Shown: piece after piece, positions 1 through 5,601 of the stretch
How the letters are laid out: each line of letters begins with the position of its first letter
Numbering within the stretch: position 1 is the first letter of the stretch
Source: a virus
Lineage: Duplodnaviria; Heunggongvirae; Uroviricota; Caudoviricetes
Strand: one strand, 5' to 3'
Virus record (IMG/VR): IMGVR_UViG_3300015185_000041
Coordinates: 1 to 5,601 of that record
Length of the DNA stretch: 5,601 nucleotides
The notes under the pieces: model-generated
Databases searched by the model: none
Seen by the model: the letters and a program-made list of their open reading frames with translations, nothing else
What the model was told of the DNA's origin: nothing
Program-made: the position numbers and the translations under genes

Positions 1-202
1 CCTCATTTCCCCTTAACGCCGGGGTAGCGGAACAAAAACCTGCTGCATAGTTATTAAAGTTGAACCCTGCCGTCATGTTCTTACGCCTCGGGCTGGCTAC
101 TTAACCCCTGACCACTGCCGGGTAACTCGAAGTATTGCCTGGCGTTCTGTGGGGCGGGGTGGGTTGATGAATGAACAATACCACTACTATTTAATTATGT
201 AA

Positions 203-215
203 ATAGCAGTGCTAT
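203..215. promoter_or_regulatory. OL-like operator: perfect 13-bp palindrome ATAGCA-G-TGCTAT
   Basis: Same palindrome family as the two sites in the repressor/cro intergenic region (1301-1313 and 1326-1338). It lies just past the terminator of the repressor operon, the position of OL in lambda. Confidence 0.5.
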
Positions 216-227
216 TATCGTGGCAAG

Positions 228-250
228 AAAAAAACCACCCGAAGGTGGTT
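228..250 (-). terminator. Intrinsic terminator closing the leftward regulator-antitoxin-toxin operon
   Basis: On the minus strand the RNA reads AACCACC-UUCG-GGUGGUU followed by a U run (plus-strand A run 228-234). GC-rich stem with a UUCG tetraloop, 15 bp past the toxin stop codon (265-267). Confidence 0.8.
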
Positions 251-264
251 GTTGACAGGAAGGA

Positions 265-555
265 TTAACAGGTTTTGTTTGGATACTGTCTTCGTGAGTG
301 AACTACATTTACGATCTCGATGTTAGATGCTGTTACTCGGTAAAGTATTATGTAGTTAGGATGAGTCACTATCTCACGAAGACTTGGAACTCTTTCGCTC
401 GGTGGGTACAGATAAGGGTGTTCAGTAAGTGACAAAACTGATGTTTCAATGCGTATTTTTAGTCTACGTGCAGCGGGAGGGTTTTCCTTAGCAATATAGG
501 CTACGATCTGACGTAAATCATCACGTGCAGAAGGTAGCCATAAAATGGGCAGCAT
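265..555 (-). CDS. parE: ParE/RelE-superfamily type II toxin (96 aa)
   Basis: Size and motifs (LPILWLPSARDDL..., ...HPNYIILYRV..., ...IEIVNVVHSRRQYP) fit ParE-family toxins. Its ATG shares one base with the TAA stop of the upstream antitoxin ORF (TAATG), the typical antitoxin-then-toxin coupling. Confidence 0.75.
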   Translation of the reverse strand: MLPILWLPSARDDLRQIVAYIAKENPPAARRLKIRIETSVLSLTEHPYLYPPSERVPSLREIVTHPNYIILYRVTASNIEIVNVVHSRRQYPNKTC

Positions 556-746
556 TACTCACTCCTGTTCGTTGCAGCTAATTGAGCAATAAGGTTTTCC
601 ATTTCAGCCATTACTTCGTCATGTGGAATTGCAGGACGGGGATCTGAGAGGCTTGCTGCCACTTTGGTTCGCAACCATTCGTTATAGCTGTTTTCTTGTT
701 CGACTGTTTCAAATTCAGAAATTATCGGGGAAAGGGCTGTACTCAT
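555..746 (-). CDS. paaA: Small type II antitoxin (63 aa), PaaA/ParD-like
   Basis: 63-aa ORF directly upstream of and coupled to the ParE-like toxin. Strong RBS (GGAGG, about 7-nt spacer). It resembles, from memory, the PaaA antitoxins of PaaR-PaaA-ParE systems; the gene symbol is a recollection, not a search result. Confidence 0.6.
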   Translation of the reverse strand: MSTALSPIISEFETVEQENSYNEWLRTKVAASLSDPRPAIPHDEVMAEMENLIAQLAATNRSE

Positions 747-763
747 GTTTTTACCTCCTCAGA

Positions 764-1264
764 TTAGGCGCGACGACCCTTTTGCGCAGCTAGCCATCGC
801 GCAACGATTTCTTCAATTGATTCTTTTTTCTCCTTCATTTCCTTAAGCATTTTCTCTTTATCTTCTTTGGGGAAAGCCCTGAACGTCTGGAGCAAATCCC
901 GCTCCATGGGGTCTATATTAAACGGAAGTTCGTTTTCCGATTGTTCCATATCTGCAGATATAGTGACAACATTGTCCTCCCCAGATTCTTGGGGATACAT
1001 CCTTACAATTTGTAACAACTCGGCCATATCTGGTCTGATTGACTCGGGAGGAACTTGCAGCAACCCTGCGAACTTGATAACAGCCTCAAGATTTAAAGGT
1101 GTCTGACCATTTAGATAATGGCTTACAGCTCCCTGTGTCGAAAATCCCAGAATTTCTGCCGCACGCTCTTGGGTTAACCCTAGTTGATTTTTTTTCGCCG
1201 TCCAGATTTCTTTCAGTCTCTGGGCGGCTTGCAGGTCGATCTCTGACAGGGATTTTCTTTTCAT
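764..1264 (-). CDS. HTH (XRE/Cro-CI family) regulator, prophage repressor-like and PaaR-like; no S24 peptidase domain (166 aa)
   Basis: Helix-turn-helix motif LGLTQERAAEILGFSTQGAVSHYLNG in the N-terminal half. The C-terminal half is acidic and lysine-rich and lacks an Ala-Gly cleavage site or Ser/Lys peptidase motifs. It faces a cro-like gene across an operator-bearing intergenic region and sits 17 bp upstream of the antitoxin on the same strand. Confidence 0.75.
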   Translation of the reverse strand: MKRKSLSEIDLQAAQRLKEIWTAKKNQLGLTQERAAEILGFSTQGAVSHYLNGQTPLNLEAVIKFAGLLQVPPESIRPDMAELLQIVRMYPQESGEDNVVTISADMEQSENELPFNIDPMERDLLQTFRAFPKEDKEKMLKEMKEKKESIEEIVARWLAAQKGRRA

Positions 1265-1371
1265 ACCTTCAATTCTAATAAGATTATTAATCTCTTTGAA
1301 ATAGTGATGCTATTTACTTTTAAAAATAACAATGCTATTAATGATCGTGATGACATCACATGAGGTGAACA
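1265..1371. promoter_or_regulatory. Divergent immunity control region (OR-like operators with candidate PR and PRM promoters)
   Basis: Operator-like palindromes ATAGTG-A-TGCTAT (1301-1313) and ATAACA-A-TGCTAT (1326-1338). Candidate rightward promoter: -35 TTTACT (1313-1318), 17-bp spacer, -10 TATTAAT (1336-1342). Candidate leftward promoter on the minus strand: -35 TTCAAA (plus 1295-1300), 17-bp spacer, -10 TAGAAT (plus 1272-1277), which would start the transcript at or near the repressor AUG. Two further palindromes: TAATAA-GA-TTATTA (1276-1289) and GTGATG-A-CATCAC (1347-1359). Confidence 0.55.
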
Positions 1372-1647
1372 ATGAATCTTGGAGAATATTTGCATCATTC
1401 CGGTATAACTCAGAAGCATTTTGCTGAAATTGTTGGGGTAACCCAAGGGATGGTAAGCCATGTCATTACCGGACGGGCGAAACTTACGGGGAAAAAAATT
1501 TTACGCTGGTGCGAAGCAACAGGCTGGATAGTAACTCCGCACGAGATTGATGGCAGTACTTATCCCAACCCAACCGACGGCTTACCTGTCGAGTATCAGG
1601 CTAACACACAACCAGAGGCGGGGGTGATTCATGAAAATCAAGCATGA
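1372..1647 (+). CDS. Cro-like HTH regulator, YdaS family (91 aa)
   Basis: Helix-turn-helix motif (ITQKHFAEIVGVTQGMVSHVITG), RBS GAGGTG upstream, divergent from the repressor across the operator region; small size and position match cro. Confidence 0.7.
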   Translation: MNLGEYLHHSGITQKHFAEIVGVTQGMVSHVITGRAKLTGKKILRWCEATGWIVTPHEIDGSTYPNPTDGLPVEYQANTQPEAGVIHENQA

Positions 1648-2056
1648 ACACATCCGCATGGCAATGAATGCCTGGGCGCATCCGGACGGCGAAAAAGTAC
1701 CGGCTGCGAAAATTACCAAAGCGTATTTCGAGCTGGGAATGACGTTCCCGGAACTGTATGACGACAGCCATCCGGAAGCCCTGGCCCGTAATACCCAGAA
1801 AATTTTCCGTTGGCTGGATAAAGACACCCCTGATGCTGTTGAAAAAATGCAGGCTCTGTTACCGGCGATCGAAAAGGCGATGCCGCCTTTGCTGGTGGCC
1901 CGTATGCGCAGCCACAGTTCTGAATATTACCGTGAGATCGTCGAACGGAGGGATCGGCTGGTGAAGGATGTCGATGATTTTGTTGCGTCAGCGGTTGTTT
2001 TGTATGACCAGATGAATCGCGGCGGCCCGGCAGGGAATGCTGTGGTGATGCACTAA
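1631..2056 (+). CDS. ydaT: YdaT-family protein (CII-like regulator position, 141 aa)
   Basis: Overlaps the cro-like gene by 17 nt and occupies the cII slot. Size and N-terminus (MKIKHEHI...) match my recollection of Rac-prophage YdaT; the name is from memory only. Confidence 0.55.
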   Translation: MKIKHEHIRMAMNAWAHPDGEKVPAAKITKAYFELGMTFPELYDDSHPEALARNTQKIFRWLDKDTPDAVEKMQALLPAIEKAMPPLLVARMRSHSSEYYREIVERRDRLVKDVDDFVASAVVLYDQMNRGGPAGNAVVMH

Positions 2057-2063
2057 AAGCACG

Positions 2064-3041
2064 GTGTTCGGGGGTTTTATGAGCAGCAAGCTTCATGGTC
2101 TTGTCTGGGAAGGGTGCGCCTTCACCGGCATGATCTTATCCAGGGTGGCGGTTATGGCCCGTCTTGCAGACTACAGCAATGACGAGGGCGTGTCATGGCC
2201 TGCCATTGAAACTATCCGGCGTCAGATCGGTGCAAGAAGTGAATCCACAGTGAAATCGGCTATTGCAGAACTGGCGAAAGAGGGCTGGCTGACGAAGGAA
2301 GAGCGTAAGGTCGGTGGGCGTAATGTAAGCAATATCTATCGGCTTAATGTGGAAAAACTCGAAGCAGCTGCGGCGGCGGCGCGTGAGTCATATAAACCGA
2401 AAAGAAAAATTAGCCCGGCAAAAAATGACCCGTTAACAGTTGACCCGTCAAATATTGACCCCTCAACGGTTGACCCGTCAAATTTTGATGGATCAACTGT
2501 TGATAAAAAACTGCCGATTAGGGGGCCGATGATTGACCCCGATCCGTCAGTATTAAAACCTGATCCGTCAGATAAAAGATCTTCTTGTCCGGACGCTTCG
2601 CAACCGGACCCGCAGACGGCTGAACAGGATTTTTTAACCCGACACCCTGACGCGGTTGTGTTCAGTGCGAAAAAACGCCAGTGGGGAAGTCAGGAAGATT
2701 TGGTGTGCGCACAGTGGATCTGGGGACGAATCGTGAGTCTTTACGAGCAGGCGGCCAGCTATGATGGCGAGATCACTAGACCGAAAGAACCCAACTGGAC
2801 AGCATGGGCCAATGACGTTCGCACAATGCGGATGCTGGATGGCAGAACTCACAGACAAATTTGTGAAATGTTTGGGCGTCTCCAGCGGGATTCGTTCTGG
2901 GTAAAAAACATCATGAGTCCGGCAAAACTCCGGGAAAAATGGGATGAACTGGTTATCCGCCTGGGGCGTTCGCCTGCGCAGCGTTGCGTGAATCACATTT
3001 CTGAACCGGACACTGAAATTCCGCCGGGCTTCAGGGGGTAA
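2064..3041 (+). CDS. Replication initiator / replisome organizer: N-terminal winged-HTH, iteron-encoded linker, C-terminal DnaT-like domain (325 aa)
   Basis: The ORF opens at GTG 2064; ATG 2079 (MSSKLHG...) preceded by GGGGG is an alternative start. The repetitive linker (DPLTVDPSNIDPSTVDPSNFDGSTVD) is encoded by tandem DNA repeats, as ori-lambda lies inside O. The C-terminal tail ...VNHISEPDTEIPPGFRG closely matches the recalled E. coli DnaT tail ...VNTVSEPDSQIPPGFRG. Confidence 0.75.
   Translation: MFGGFMSSKLHGLVWEGCAFTGMILSRVAVMARLADYSNDEGVSWPAIETIRRQIGARSESTVKSAIAELAKEGWLTKEERKVGGRNVSNIYRLNVEKLEAAAAAARESYKPKRKISPAKNDPLTVDPSNIDPSTVDPSNFDGSTVDKKLPIRGPMIDPDPSVLKPDPSDKRSSCPDASQPDPQTAEQDFLTRHPDAVVFSAKKRQWGSQEDLVCAQWIWGRIVSLYEQAASYDGEITRPKEPNWTAWANDVRTMRMLDGRTHRQICEMFGRLQRDSFWVKNIMSPAKLREKWDELVIRLGRSPAQRCVNHISEPDTEIPPGFRG
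2426..2515. repeat. Putative replication-origin iterons: five to six tandem 15-bp repeats (core TTGAC-CC-GTCAA)
   Basis: Head-to-tail 15-mers: TGACCCGTTAACAGT, TGACCCGTCAAATAT, TGACCCCTCAACGGT, TGACCCGTCAAATTT, TGATGGATCAACTGT, then a degenerate TGATAAAAAACTGCC. Related CCGTCAG copies occur at about 2541-2570. An A-rich tract (about 2395-2425) flanks them on the left. Confidence 0.7.
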
Positions 3042-3081: not shown

Positions 3082-3504
3082 GTGGCAAAAGTTTTTACAC
3101 AAGAAGAGCGGGAAAAAATTAAAGGGCAGGTTGTTGAACTCGTACGCCAGAGTGGGCGCGAGACGTTACGACAACTGGAAACTAAAACTGGGGCAACAAG
3201 ATATCTGATGAGCGTTCTGGCCAGAGAGCTGGTTGCCAGTGGCGATGTATACAACTCTGGTTACGGGTTATTCCCGTCTGAACAGGCGCGTAAGGACTGG
3301 CAAAATGCCCGTAAAAAGCTCTCAAGGGCAAAGCTGAAGAAACCATCTGCGGTTGATCCGGACCTTATCTGGTCATTACCTGACGGAGAAATACGTCGCT
3401 ACGACAGGCGCCTAAACATAATCTGTCGCGAGTGCCGGAAGAGTGAAGCTATGCAGCGTGTACTGGCGTTTTATCAGGGGAATTTTGAGGAGGTGGTGCG
3501 GTGA
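3082..3504 (+). CDS. ren: Ren-like protein with HTH-like N-terminal region (140 aa)
   Basis: GTG start with a weak RBS. The C-terminal motif ICRECRKSEAMQRVLAFY resembles the recalled lambda Ren C-terminus (..KECRQSAAMKRVLAVYG..). It sits directly after the replication gene, as ren follows O-P in lambda. Recollection only. Confidence 0.5.
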   Translation: MAKVFTQEEREKIKGQVVELVRQSGRETLRQLETKTGATRYLMSVLARELVASGDVYNSGYGLFPSEQARKDWQNARKKLSRAKLKKPSAVDPDLIWSLPDGEIRRYDRRLNIICRECRKSEAMQRVLAFYQGNFEEVVR

Positions 3505-4059: not shown

Positions 4060-4158
4060 AGGCTATAAACCGACTAACAACTAAATACTGAAGATTTAAA
4101 TCAGAAACGATTTTTATTAAATCCTTAACCGGAGGGATTCCTGCACCCTCAGAACATC

Positions 4159-4190
4159 AGGAGGCCGTCCGAAAGGGCGGTAGTGAAATG
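4159..4190 (+). promoter_or_regulatory. Translation-initiation element: SD AGGAGG, 16-nt hairpin with GAAA tetraloop, then AUG
   Basis: AGGAGG (4159-4164) lies 23 nt from ATG 4188. The stem CCGUCC-GAAA-GGGCGG (4165-4180, one G-U pair) fills the gap, leaving 7 unpaired nt before the AUG. A second hairpin GAGGG-(9 nt)-CCCTC lies at 4132-4150. Confidence 0.45.
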
Positions 4191-4370
4191 CGAAAATTCA
4201 AAATAATTATTGAAACGGGAATAGCCGGTGGAGATTTCGAGGATGAATTCGAAGTGGATGATGATGCAACACCAGATGAAATACAGGATGAAGCTAAAGA
4301 TATTTTCTTTAACTACTGCAATTACTCATACCACGAAATAAAAGACGAAGAGGAAGAACAAAATGGCTGA
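4188..4370 (+). CDS. Hypothetical very acidic small protein (60 aa)
   Basis: About 20 Asp/Glu against 4 Lys/Arg. Hydrophobic N-terminal strand (KFKIIIETGIAGG) then an acidic tail ending EEEEQNG. Confidence 0.6.
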   Translation: MRKFKIIIETGIAGGDFEDEFEVDDDATPDEIQDEAKDIFFNYCNYSYHEIKDEEEEQNG

Positions 4371-4539
4371 TTTTGGTTCAACTAAATATAACGCCAGTTT
4401 TGAAGAATGGCATGAACTGTTAATGGATTATGCAGAGTTACGCGGTGGAAGTGCCGCTGATGCTGAAGCATGGCGTGATGATTATGAAGCAGGAAAAACT
4501 CCGGTCGAAGCATATTGTGATGAGTGGGGCGATGAATGA
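4363..4539 (+). CDS. Hypothetical acidic small protein (58 aa, absent from the supplied ORF track)
   Basis: Hand translation from ATG 4363: MADFGSTKYNASFEEWHELLMDYAELRGGSAADAEAWRDDYEAGKTPVEAYCDEWGDE, stop TGA 4537-4539. Its start overlaps the upstream stop (ATGGCTGA) and its stop overlaps the next ATG (ATGA). Confidence 0.6.
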   Translation: MADFGSTKYNASFEEWHELLMDYAELRGGSAADAEAWRDDYEAGKTPVEAYCDEWGDE

Positions 4540-4793: not shown

Positions 4794-5022
4794 AACGCGA
4801 AAATCCACCAGCATCCGGAAACCTGATTACAGATTCCCAGATAAGGCAATGAGCTACCTGGCGCAGAACGGGCTGATAAGTATGGGGAATGTTTTACGAT
4901 GAATATTTAGACTAAAGAGTTTGTAACGCTATGTAAGTGATTTTTTCTGGTTTAGATATTTATATGTCCGGCCAAATTGAGGTGTGTTTAAATGTAATTG
5001 CACATTGATTGTAGGAGGAATA

Positions 5023-5202
5023 ATGAAAAACGCATTGCAGTTTTTGTTTGTTGCGTTCTGGTTGTTCGTATCATGTATGCCCATCATCTTCACAGCAAGG
5101 TATATGGAAAAAGTTGATGTTTTGATATTAATATTTGGATATATAAATGCCCTTTTTTTAGGGGTGTTCATGGCGGTCATGTGCATTGAATACTGGCGGT
5201 AA
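5023..5202 (+). CDS. Small two-helix membrane protein (59 aa)
   Basis: ATG 5023 preceded by AGGAGG (5013-5018). Product MKNALQFLFVAFWLFVSCMPIIFTARYMEKVDVLILIFGYINALFLGVFMAVMCIEYWR has two hydrophobic helices. The track ORF 4984..5202 starts at an upstream GTG with no RBS. Confidence 0.6.
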   Translation: MKNALQFLFVAFWLFVSCMPIIFTARYMEKVDVLILIFGYINALFLGVFMAVMCIEYWR

Positions 5203-5460: not shown

Positions 5461-5464
5461 ATGA
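5405..5464 (+). CDS. Short upstream ORF (19 aa) coupled to hok; possible Mok analogue
   Basis: ATG 5405 with GAGG 8 nt upstream; TGA stop overlaps the hok ATG (ATGA). Product MRHIEISLLRTERSRRSRL. Confidence 0.3.
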   Translation: MRHIEISLLRTERSRRSRL

Positions 5465-5601
5465 AGCAGCAAAAGGCGATGTTAATCGCCCTGATCGTCA
5501 TCTGTTTAACCGTCATTGTGACGGCACTGGTAACGAGGAAAGACCTCTGCGAGGTACGAATCCGAACCGGCCAGACGGAGGTCGCTGTCTTCACAGCTTA
5601 C
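5461..5601 (+). CDS. hok: Hok/Gef-family type I toxin, truncated by the window edge
   Basis: MKQQKAMLIALIVICLTVIVTALVTRKDLCEVRIRTGQTEVAVFTAY is near-identical to recalled HokD/HokC sequences. RBS AAGGAG with 9-nt spacer. About four codons are missing beyond position 5601. Confidence 0.85.
   Translation, partial: MKQQKAMLIALIVICLTVIVTALVTRKDLCEVRIRTGQTEVAVFTAY

What the first reader, a model, noticed from the sequence alone, without database searches (positions are those of the whole stretch)
764..1264. Repressor-like regulator lacks a LexA/CI-type autocleavage domain
The 166-aa protein has an N-terminal HTH but its C-terminal half is acidic and lysine-rich (KEDKEKMLKEMKEKKESIEE) with no Ala-Gly cleavage site or S24 Ser/Lys motifs. 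RecA-stimulated self-cleavage is therefore unlikely. Induction would need another route, such as an antirepressor, proteolysis by a host protease, or the cro-like/YdaT-like pair, which bears on how the linked toxin would ever be released.
Basis: partly seen in the sequence, partly recalled or inferred. Interest (0 to 1): 0.4.

Follow-up and report, generated by a model that had tools for sequence, protein, structure and literature searches.

The report
Non-cleavable DicA/PaaR2-type prophage repressor
The gene encodes the main repressor of an E. coli lambda-like prophage, built from a lambda-CI-type DNA-binding head and a short helical tail of the DicA/PaaR2 type instead of a self-cleaving protease domain; this class of repressor is already described, so the finding is correct but ordinary.

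Summary
Window 764-1264 (- strand) encodes a 166-aa protein with three parts. Residues 1-92 are a five-helix domain homologous to the lambda CI N-terminal domain. Residues 93-118 are an acidic linker predicted to be disordered. Residues 119-166 form a Lys/Glu-rich two-helix hairpin. No Peptidase_S24 signal appears even at E<=1, while the same scan finds S24 strongly in two relatives that share the N-terminal domain.

The tail is a conserved module, not debris. It is 55% identical to the C-terminus of PaaR2 (E. coli O157:H7 CP-933P) and homologous to the C-termini of DicA (Qin) and, more weakly, GtgR (Gifsy-2). The gene sits in the cI slot. It is divergent from cro-like ydaS plus ydaT, is followed by paaA-parE, and is flanked by lambda-like sets of 17-bp palindromic operators that recur in related loci.

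The literature already says PaaR2, DicA and the Gifsy repressors lack the cleavage motif and do not respond directly to SOS. They are relieved by antirepressors (Rem, GfoA/GftA) or by Cro-type bistable switching.

Verdict: a heteroimmune new member of a known class. No Rem- or GftA-type antirepressor was found in the window or in the O104:H4 copy of the prophage, so the induction route stays open.

The parts
764..1264 (-). Repressor gene (166 aa plus stop); CI analogue of the prophage; 100% identical to cluster P0001 (listed by NCBI for E. coli as 'helix-turn-helix transcriptional regulator')
989..1264 (-). Codons 1-92: lambda-CI-type five-helix DNA-binding domain (helices 8-24, 32-39, 46-51, 59-69, 78-89)
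   Evidence: 52% identical over residues 2-90 to the CI of Stx phage Lyz12581Vzw, where homology stops at residue 90
911..988 (-). Codons 93-118: acidic linker (net charge -8), predicted disordered (pLDDT<50 for residues 93-112); 244-aa relatives carry a second HTH domain inserted here
767..910 (-). Codons 119-166: DicA/PaaR2-type C-terminal helical hairpin (helix 119-130, invariant Pro132, helix 133-165)
1324..1340 (.). Operator OR1-like, AAATAACAATGCTATTA, overlapping the spacer and -10 of the inferred PR
1299..1315 (.). Operator OR2-like, AAATAGTGATGCTATTT, between the PR -35 and the PRM -35
1276..1292 (.). Weak OR3-like site (GATTAATAATCTTATTA on the - strand) overlapping the PRM -10; low score in the window, but the same position holds GATTAGTAAAACTATTA in L003 and L005
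1272..1300 (-). PRM-like promoter TTCAAA-17-TAGAAT; the -10 ends 7 nt before the A of the start codon, so a leaderless mRNA is inferred, as shown experimentally for paaR2
   Evidence: PMC8630535
1313..1341 (+). Inferred PR: TTTACT-17-TATTAA (8 of 12 consensus matches, below the scanner's threshold) driving ydaS-ydaT
   Evidence: read from the sequence; inference
1372..1647 (+). cro-like HTH gene (ydaS position)
1631..2056 (+). ydaT, CII analogue; differs at a single residue of 140 aligned from CP-933P YdaT (PDB 8BT1)
1624..1641 (.). YdaT box GTGATTCATGAAAATCAA (1 mismatch to TTGATTN6AATCAA) at the ydaS/ydaT junction
   Evidence: PMC9986795
555..746 (-). paaA antitoxin, co-oriented 17 bp downstream of the repressor; matches O157:H7 PaaA2 (PDB 3ZBE, E 2e-22), with the divergence concentrated at its C-terminal end
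265..555 (-). parE toxin, homologue of ParE2 (PDB 5CW7, E 5e-36)
233..250 (-). Intrinsic terminator-like hairpin plus T-run after parE
201..217 (.). Operator OL-like, AAATAGCAGTGCTATTA (best site in the window), overlapping the PL -35
176..192 (.). Operator OL-like, CAATACCACTACTATTT, overlapping the PL -10 and spacer
175..203 (-). PL-like promoter TTTACA-17-TATTGT, pointing leftward towards the DUF1391...dicB genes seen in L002

Best explanation
The 166-aa protein is the immunity (CI-analogue) repressor of a lambdoid E. coli prophage. It belongs to the 'unconventional', non-cleavable class typified by DicA, PaaR2 and the Gifsy repressors.

Its lambda-CI-type N-terminal domain binds 17-bp palindromic operators (consensus about AAATAGCAnTGCTATTT). 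These are arranged as in lambda. Two strong sites plus one weak site, 23-25 bp apart, lie between its own leaderless PRM-type promoter and the divergent PR of ydaS(cro)-ydaT(cII analogue). Two more sites lie over a PL-type promoter downstream of parE.

An acidic flexible linker connects the head to a roughly 48-residue helical hairpin homologous to the C-termini of PaaR2 and DicA. This hairpin most likely provides dimerisation and higher oligomerisation, and hence cooperative binding. It takes the place of the S24 protease/oligomerisation domain of CI and LexA.

The repressor mRNA continues into paaA-parE, which occupy the rexAB 'cargo' slot. Because there is no S24 domain, RecA cannot trigger self-cleavage. 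Derepression must come from a repressor-binding antirepressor, encoded in cis or by another prophage, and/or from stochastic or stress-biased flipping of the repressor/Cro bistable switch.

Shown here: domain composition, absence of S24, homologies, gene context and operator pattern. Inferred: operator occupancy, leaderless start, oligomerisation through the tail, and the induction route.
For: Domain architecture and absence of S24, with positive controls.

Tail homology: 55% identity to the PaaR2 C-terminus, E 3e-16. NCBIfam DicA model, E 1.5e-7, over residues 107-162. BLASTP to DicA, E 2e-5. A tail profile built without DicA or GtgR finds DicA at 97% probability, E 2e-11, and GtgR at 85% probability, E 7e-6.

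cI-slot context: ydaS/ydaT, an O-like gene, and a full lambda-like prophage at potB/potC in O104:H4.

Operators: 8 pattern matches (the four palindromic sites, each matched on both strands) against 1.1 expected, and 0 of 200 shuffles reach that number. A PWM built from the four window sites finds sites 23-25 bp apart in the repressor-cro intergenic region, and a second pair downstream of the repressor operon, in three independently retrieved homologous loci. It finds no such arrays in the PaaR2 locus or in Gifsy-2, whose DNA-binding domains differ.

Promoters and terminator.

Literature: PaaR2 is a CI analogue, leaderless, octamerises, lacks the peptidase motif, and is bistable with YdaS (PMC8630535). 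DicA is relieved by the antirepressor Rem and is bistable with DicC (PMC10448788). Gifsy repressors are uncleaved and are inactivated by LexA-controlled antirepressors (PMC3121763). Peptidase-less repressors correlate with non-inducibility by mitomycin C in O157 prophages (PMC2669165).
Against: Nothing was tested biochemically for this protein.

Only the C-terminal 44-50 residues are related to PaaR2 and DicA. The DNA-binding domains differ, so properties of PaaR2 (octamer, leaderless start) are transferred by analogy.

The tail family is narrow at sequence level: 10 hits among 1.8 billion representatives. It has no solved structure, so its role in oligomerisation is inferred.

The GtgR link is weak (85% probability).

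No Rem-type or GftA-type antirepressor, no DinI homologue and no plausibly placed LexA box were found in the window or in the O104:H4 copy of the prophage. The antirepressor route therefore has no direct support here.
Confidence: 0.8

Rival explanations
1. It is only the dedicated transcription factor of a three-component toxin-antitoxin module (paaR-paaA-parE), not a prophage immunity repressor.
For: It has the same gene order as the paaR2-paaA2-parE2 operon. The regulator is 17 bp upstream of paaA in the same orientation. PaaR2 was first described this way (Hallez 2010, as cited in PMC8630535).
Against: Close homologues sit in the same cI slot, next to cro-like and ydaT genes, with quite different downstream cargo: HipA_2+DUF3037, HigBA, or an unknown gene. 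Operator pairs lie over both PR- and PL-type promoters. For PaaR2 itself, the primary targets were shown to be ydaS-ydaT (PMC8630535).
Confidence: 0.08
2. It is a decayed CI: a formerly S24-bearing repressor that lost its protease domain by truncation in a dying prophage.
For: Relatives with the same N-terminal domain do carry S24. Asadulghani et al. scored the Sp12 repressor as 'disrupted'.
Against: The C-terminal 48 residues are a conserved, confidently modelled helical module shared with PaaR2, DicA and many homologues of constant length. The gene is intact and near-identical in 72 complete genomes. In O104:H4 it sits in an apparently complete prophage.
Confidence: 0.03
3. Induction route A: a small antirepressor binds the repressor and removes it from DNA. 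It would be encoded elsewhere in this prophage or by a co-resident prophage, possibly under LexA control.
For: This is the documented mechanism for tail-sharing relatives: Rem for DicA, GftA for GtgR. Trans-acting cross-talk between heteroimmune prophages is documented.
Against: No homologue of Rem (phrog_340) or GftA (phrog_4847) was found among the ORFs tested, and tblastn over the window and the whole O104:H4 prophage was negative. The only exact CTGT-N8-ACAG in 40 kb lies inside a coding region. Antirepressors are small and divergent, so this negative is weak.
Confidence: 0.4
4. Induction route B: there is no dedicated inducer. The repressor/YdaS(Cro) pair forms a bistable switch that flips stochastically or under physiological cues such as growth phase, temperature or urea, with YdaT biasing it back.
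For: This was shown for PaaR2/YdaS/YdaT and for DicA/DicC, where it is independent of Rem and RecA. The window carries the full set of parts, including the YdaT box.
Against: Those two systems sit in cryptic prophages. The O104:H4 copy looks complete, and a viable temperate phage would be expected to have a regulated exit. Routes A and B are not mutually exclusive.
Confidence: 0.4
5. Induction route C: a host protease (Lon or ClpXP) degrades the repressor through the disordered acidic linker or the C-terminus.
For: A 20-residue low-confidence acidic linker is present. The neighbouring antitoxin PaaA2 is a ClpAP/ClpXP substrate.
Against: No degron was recognised and there is no precedent in the cited family papers. 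This is speculation.
Confidence: 0.08

Closest known systems
PaaR2 of the paaR2-paaA2-parE2 / ydaS-ydaT immunity region, cryptic prophage CP-933P (= Sp12), E. coli O157:H7
   Same: Same locus architecture: repressor-paaA-parE leftward, and cro-like ydaS plus ydaT rightward. ydaT differs at one residue of 140 aligned. PaaA and ParE are homologous. The C-terminal 44 residues of the repressor are 55% identical. A -10 element sits 6-7 nt before the ATG, implying a leaderless mRNA. There is no peptidase motif (PMC8630535).
   Different: The DNA-binding domains are unrelated in sequence: PaaR2 is 123 aa with a short HTH, while this protein is 166 aa with a lambda-CI-type five-helix domain and a longer acidic linker. 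The operators differ: GTTTAGTAA-type repeats in CP-933P against AAATAGCAnTGCTATTT here, and the CP-933P motif is not enriched in the window. The two are therefore heteroimmune. The cro-like gene also differs.
DicA, repressor of the Qin cryptic prophage, E. coli K-12
   Same: A short repressor in the cI slot, opposite a cro-like gene (dicC). The C-terminal helical module is homologous (NCBIfam DicA model E 1.5e-7; profile E 2e-11). DicA lacks the cleavage site and is not induced by mitomycin C.
   Different: The DicA N-terminal domain is of the P22 C2 type, not the lambda CI type. DicA has a known antirepressor (Rem), for which no homologue was found here. No TA pair lies directly downstream of dicA.
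Gifsy prophage repressors (GtgR/GftR, GfoR, GfhR) of Salmonella, with LexA-controlled antirepressors
   Same: Repressors of about 140-150 aa, not cleaved on induction. The GtgR C-terminus carries the same LLxLFxxLPExE motif (profile probability 85%, E 7e-6).
   Different: Direct BLASTP shows no significant similarity. The Gifsy dinI-antirepressor unit is absent from the window and from the O104:H4 prophage.
Lambda CI and the CI repressors of Stx phages (LexA/S24 family)
   Same: The N-terminal domain is homologous: 52% identity over residues 2-90 to a Stx-phage CI, and TM 0.93 to the lambda CI NTD. The operator layout at OR and OL and the cI-slot position are lambda-like. Acidic residues align with the lambda positive-control residues E34 and D38 (window E33 and E37; read from the alignment; inference).
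   Different: There is no S24 domain, no linker Ala-Gly and no Ser/Lys dyad. Homology ends at residue 90.

Membership tests
LexA/CI-type autocleaving repressors (Peptidase S24) | C-terminal Peptidase_S24 domain (all-beta fold) | tested here: not met
   No PF00717 hit at E<=1. Positive controls score 2e-28 and 4e-11 in the same library. The model is entirely helical or disordered after residue 92.
LexA/CI-type autocleaving repressors (Peptidase S24) | Ala-Gly (or Cys-Gly) scissile bond in the inter-domain linker | tested here: not met
   The only AG is at residues 66-67, inside N-terminal helix 59-69. There is none in residues 90-166 and no CG anywhere.
LexA/CI-type autocleaving repressors (Peptidase S24) | Catalytic Ser/Lys dyad in the C-terminal domain | tested here: not met
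   No S24 alignment exists in which to place a dyad. The tail has a single Ser.
LexA/CI-type autocleaving repressors (Peptidase S24) | RecA*-stimulated cleavage on DNA damage | not testable with these tools
   Needs mitomycin C or UV treatment plus a western blot.
DicA/PaaR2-type non-cleavable lambdoid repressors | N-terminal Cro/CI-type HTH domain | tested here: met
   HTH_3 E 1e-9; lambda CI NTD E 1.5e-9; TM 0.93.
DicA/PaaR2-type non-cleavable lambdoid repressors | C-terminal roughly 50-residue helical module (LLxxFxxxPxxE... motif) homologous to PaaR2 and DicA | tested here: met
   PaaR2: 55% identity, E 3e-16. DicA model: E 1.5e-7. Profile against DicA: 97% probability, E 2e-11.
DicA/PaaR2-type non-cleavable lambdoid repressors | Located in the cI slot, divergent from a cro-like gene, with operators over both promoters | tested here: met
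DicA/PaaR2-type non-cleavable lambdoid repressors | Repression insensitive to mitomycin C; relieved by an antirepressor or by a bistable switch | not testable with these tools
   Known only for relatives. No Rem or GftA homologue was found here.
DicA/PaaR2-type non-cleavable lambdoid repressors | Dimer-to-octamer self-association (reported for PaaR2) | not testable with these tools
   Only a monomer model could be made. The PaaR2 octamer is cited in PMC8630535.
Three-component paaR-paaA-parE toxin-antitoxin modules | Regulator, PaaA-type antitoxin without a DNA-binding domain, and ParE toxin, in that order in one transcription unit | tested here: met
   Pfam PaaA2 E 1e-21 and ParE_toxin E 7e-18. 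PDB PaaA2 E 2e-22 and ParE2 E 5e-36. The gaps are 17 bp and an overlap, with one terminator after parE.
Three-component paaR-paaA-parE toxin-antitoxin modules | Regulator orthologous to PaaR2 over its whole length | tested here: not met
   Only residues 123-166 align with PaaR2; the N-terminal domains are unrelated.

The most novel reading that the evidence does not exclude
The DicA/PaaR2-type helical tail and the S24 domain may be interchangeable C-terminal cassettes on the same lambda-type DNA-binding head. Immunity specificity (head) and induction route (tail) would then assort independently among E. coli lambdoid phages. The tail would be the common docking surface for small, cross-reacting antirepressors. 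An apparently complete prophage such as the O104:H4 one could then be induced only in trans, by an as yet unrecognised antirepressor family. The 244-aa relatives, with a second GtgR-like HTH inserted before the same tail, would be natural fusions of two such repressors.
Probability: 0.25. Interest if true: 0.45.

Novelty: new member of a known kind. Interest (0 to 1): 0.2.

Why it matters
It matters little beyond annotation. It puts a name and a working model on a widespread 'helix-turn-helix domain-containing protein' found in 72 of 5426 complete E. coli genomes, including O104:H4 outbreak-lineage strains. It also predicts its operators.

It shows that the paaA-parE pair here is passenger cargo in the rexAB slot of an immunity region, not an SOS-triggered suicide module. 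The toxin's release should therefore not be expected from DNA damage acting through this repressor.

The modest general point is that short prophage repressors are easily mis-scored as truncated CI, when they carry a conserved alternative C-terminal module whose structure is still unsolved.

Tried and rejected
1. Exact identity with PaaR2. Rejected: the primers in Table S3 of PMC8630535 and the O157:H7 SS52 locus show a 123-aa protein with a different N-terminus. Only the tail matches.

2. The CP-933P operator motif GTTTAGTAA. It is not enriched in the window: 18 matches against 16 expected.

3. A solved structure for the tail. There is none by sequence for the whole protein, for DicA or for the tail profile. 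Foldseek hits are all driven by the N-terminal domain.

4. The breadth of the tail family. phmmer with the tail alone against 1.8 billion representatives gave only 10 hits, mostly fragments.

5. LexA boxes. There are none at 0 mismatches in the window, and the two 1-mismatch hits lie inside ORFs. The single exact hit in the 40-kb O104:H4 locus lies inside a 116-aa ORF. A TACTG...CAG look-alike near 4094-4112 has 11-nt rather than 10-nt spacing (read).

6. Antirepressor homologues. tblastn with K-12 Rem, with the Gifsy-2 ORF at the gftA position, and with DinI found nothing at E<0.05 in the window, in the O104:H4 prophage or in related loci. A PHROG scan of eight small ORFs gave only families of unknown function, different from those of Rem (phrog_340) and GftA (phrog_4847).

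7. A specific association of the tail with paaA-parE. Rejected, because relatives carry other cargo.

8. The paper on PaaR2 thermodynamics (PMC6486494) is not held in the library.
Full report
**What is in the window**

The 5.6-kb window is the immunity and early-replication region of a lambdoid E. coli prophage.

- On the - strand: parE (265-555), paaA (555-746) and the 166-aa regulator (764-1264).
- On the + strand: a cro-like HTH gene (1372-1647), ydaT (1631-2056), an O-like replication gene (2064-3041), a DUF977 gene (3082-3504), several small ORFs, and the start of a hokD-like gene at 5461.

The regulator gene with its upstream region is present in 72 of 5426 complete E. coli genomes, always chromosomal, including O104:H4 strains. 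In an O104:H4 genome it lies in an apparently complete lambda-like prophage inserted between potB and potC. That prophage has int, xis, exonuclease, dicB, the immunity region, replication genes, hokD, Q, lysis genes, terminase, head and tail genes.

**Check of the observation**

The ORF, its length and the quoted peptide (residues 133-152) are as described.

The N-terminal HTH is real and more specific than 'an HTH':
- Residues 2-90 match the lambda CI N-terminal domain (phmmer E 1.5e-9).
- An AlphaFold2 model built on 22 homologues (mean pLDDT 77.5) gives five helices.
- These superpose on lambda CI NTD crystal structures at TM 0.93 and rmsd 1.1 A.

After residue 92 the model has a low-confidence acidic linker (residues 93-112, pLDDT<50; net charge of 93-118 is -8). 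It then has a helix (119-130), an invariant proline (P132) and a long helix (133-165), at pLDDT about 80-90.

There is no Peptidase_S24 hit even at E<=1. The same library detects S24 at E 2e-28 in the CI of Stx phage Lyz12581Vzw and at 4e-11 in metagenomic relative P0031. Both share this N-terminal domain. Against the Stx-phage CI, the window protein is 52% identical over residues 2-90, and similarity stops exactly there.

There is one Ala-Gly, at residues 66-67, inside helix 4 of the DNA-binding domain. None lies in the linker or the tail.

**What the C-terminal half is**

It is not a featureless charged tail.

- I recovered PaaR2 from an O157:H7 genome through its neighbour ydaT. I checked it against the primers in Table S3 of Jurenas et al., and the start MQKKEIRRL and the end QKCRRA both match.
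- The last 44 residues of the window protein are 55% identical (89% similar) to the C-terminus of PaaR2, E 3e-16. The N-terminal domains are unrelated.
- NCBIfam's DicA model matches residues 107-162 with its own C-terminal positions 75-130 (E 1.5e-7).
- BLASTP to K-12 DicA gives E 2e-5 over the same stretch.
- A 16-sequence profile of the tail, built without DicA or GtgR, finds the DicA C-terminus at 97% probability (E 2e-11). It finds the C-terminus of the Gifsy-2 repressor GtgR at 85% probability (E 7e-6).

The shared motif is roughly L(S/T)xxxxxLLxxFxxxPxx(D/E), followed by a long amphipathic helix.

No solved structure matches this module by sequence. The family is narrow at sequence level: 10 hits among 1.8 billion representatives.

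The module is combined with at least three head types: lambda-CI type here, P22-C2 type in DicA, and a short HTH in PaaR2. In 244-aa relatives a second HTH resembling the GtgR head is inserted between the lambda-type head and the tail.

**Regulatory DNA**

Four 17-bp palindromic sites stand out (consensus about AAATAGCAnTGCTATTT). They lie at 1299-1315 and 1324-1340 between the divergent genes, and at 176-192 and 201-217 downstream of parE. Each pair is 25 bp apart. The core pattern gives 8 strand-matches against 1.1 expected, and 0 of 200 shuffles reach 8.

A weak third site (1276-1292) is 23 bp from the second. It corresponds in position to a similar weak site, GATTAGTAAAACTATTA, in L003 and L005.

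The promoter scan finds:
- a PRM-like TTCAAA-17-TAGAAT on the - strand, whose -10 ends 7 nt before the A of the start codon;
- a PL-like TTTACA-17-TATTGT at 203-175, overlapped by the two left sites;
- a terminator-like hairpin after parE.

A PR (TTTACT-17-TATTAA, 1313-1341) is my inference from the sequence.

A PWM built from the four window sites was run on three loci retrieved independently through homologous repressors (L003, L005, L007). Those repressors keep the recognition-helix region invariant. In each locus the PWM finds sites 23-25 bp apart in the repressor-cro intergenic region and a second pair downstream of the repressor operon. It finds no such arrays in the PaaR2 locus or in Gifsy-2, whose heads differ. 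This comparative pattern supports the operator assignment. Occupancy itself is untested.

The YdaT box of Prolic-Kalinsek et al. (TTGATTN6AATCAA) is present with one mismatch at 1624-1641, the ydaS/ydaT junction. The window YdaT differs at a single residue of the 140 aligned with the crystallised CP-933P protein.

**How it most likely works**

By homology and context this is the CI analogue of the prophage. Dimers bind the OR and OL operators through the lambda-type head. They repress PR (ydaS-ydaT and replication) and PL (towards dicB). From OR2, which abuts the PRM -35, they probably stimulate their own leaderless transcript. Acidic residues E33 and E37 align with the lambda positive-control residues E34 and D38; this is read from the alignment and is an inference.

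The helical tail most likely supplies the self-association that the S24 domain supplies in CI. PaaR2 is reported to go from dimer to octamer (cited in PMC8630535). Which domain does this has not been shown in anything I could read.

The repressor transcript runs on into paaA-parE, which occupy the rexAB position (PMC9986795). In relatives the same slot holds HipA_2+DUF3037, HigB/HigA or other genes. The TA pair is therefore exchangeable cargo, not a partner of the tail.

**Induction**

Self-cleavage can be set aside. For the class, three routes are documented:
1. LexA-controlled small antirepressors that bind Gifsy repressors (PMC3121763).
2. The antirepressor Rem acting on DicA (PMC10448788).
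3. RecA- and Rem-independent flipping of a repressor/Cro bistable switch. This is influenced by growth phase for PaaR2/YdaS (PMC8630535) and by urea and temperature for DicA/DicC.

I looked for route 1 and route 2 here and found nothing:
- tblastn found no Rem, GftA-position ORF or DinI homologue in the window or in the complete O104:H4 prophage.
- None of eight small ORFs falls in the PHROG families of Rem or GftA.
- No LexA box is plausibly placed.

Antirepressors are small and fast-evolving and can act in trans from other prophages, so this negative is weak. I rate the antirepressor and bistable-switch routes as about equally likely, and they are not exclusive. Protease-driven turnover is a poor third.

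It favours an addiction or stabilisation role, with PaaA2 turnover by ClpAP/ClpXP. Repressor inactivation should therefore not be assumed to release the toxin.

**Comparison with what is known, and novelty**

- for PaaR2;
- in similar form for DicA;
- for the Gifsy repressors;
- for several O157 Sakai prophage repressors.

What is specific to this locus is the combination of a lambda-CI-type head with the DicA/PaaR2 tail, a different operator set (heteroimmunity with CP-933P), and diverged PaaA and ParE alleles. I found no paper that mentions this protein's accession, WP_000824162 as annotated in the O104:H4 record.

It fails every sequence-testable criterion for the S24 family. It meets the sequence and context criteria for the DicA/PaaR2 class. 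It is a PaaR2 homologue only in its tail.

I classify it as a new member of a known kind.

Noticed in passing
window 5461-5601 (runs off the right end): Start of a hokD-type type I toxin ORF (MKQQKAMLIALIVICLTVIVTALVTRKDLCEVRIRTGQTEVAVFTAY...). hokD is annotated at the same place in the O104:H4 prophage (L002 27692-27847). In K-12 Qin the DicA antirepressor gene rem lies next to hokD, but the ORF in that position in L002 (28015-28293) is unrelated to Rem.
   Followed up: partly
window 2420-2480, inside the O-like gene 2064-3041: Four to five direct repeats with a 15-bp period (TTGACCCGTCAA-type), encoding the DPxxVDPSN repeats of the protein. They look like origin iterons embedded in the initiator gene, as in lambda O.
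   Followed up: partly
window 1624-1641: GTGATTCATGAAAATCAA, one mismatch from the published YdaT operator OM (TTGATTN6AATCAA), at the ydaS stop / ydaT start. In O157:H7 the site is exact (L001).
   Followed up: partly
proteins P0013-P0022 (e.g. L003 4001-4735): Relatives of 240-255 aa carry a second HTH domain between the lambda-type head and the DicA-type tail. Its '...GxPPYWFMLPPDE' ending resembles the end of the Gifsy-2 GtgR head, so these look like natural head-head-tail fusions.
   Followed up: partly
L003 4787-6360; L005 4612-5339; L007 4653-5189: The slot directly downstream of the repressor (the rexAB position) holds different cargo in related prophages: HipA_2 kinase-like plus DUF3037, HigB/HigA, or an unknown 178-aa protein. 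The window has paaA-parE there.
   Followed up: no
window 555-746: The PaaA antitoxin aligns closely with PaaA2 (PDB 3ZBE) over roughly residues 3-46, and the alignment diverges over the last ~10 aligned residues (MAEMENLIAQL against ERRMAERFAKM). ParE also shows many substitutions relative to ParE2. The TA pair is therefore a distinct allele and may not cross-neutralise.
   Followed up: no
window 4188-4539: Two overlapping small, very acidic ORFs (60 and 58 aa; phrog_1997 and phrog_519, both of unknown function) follow a 130-bp non-coding stretch that holds a hairpin (ggccgtccgaaagggcgg). Their size and position are what one would expect of nin-region modulators, but they show no similarity to known antirepressors.
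   Followed up: partly
window 4984-5202: An AT-rich island holds a 72-aa hydrophobic ORF (two predicted membrane-spanning stretches by eye) with no PHROG or NCBIfam match. It may be a moron between the nin region and hokD.
   Followed up: no
literature, Sp12 / CP-933P: Asadulghani et al. 2009 scored the Sp12 repressor as 'disrupted'. Jurenas et al. 2021 showed that the same protein (PaaR2) is a functional repressor. Short DicA-type repressors are prone to being annotated as decayed CI.
   Followed up: yes
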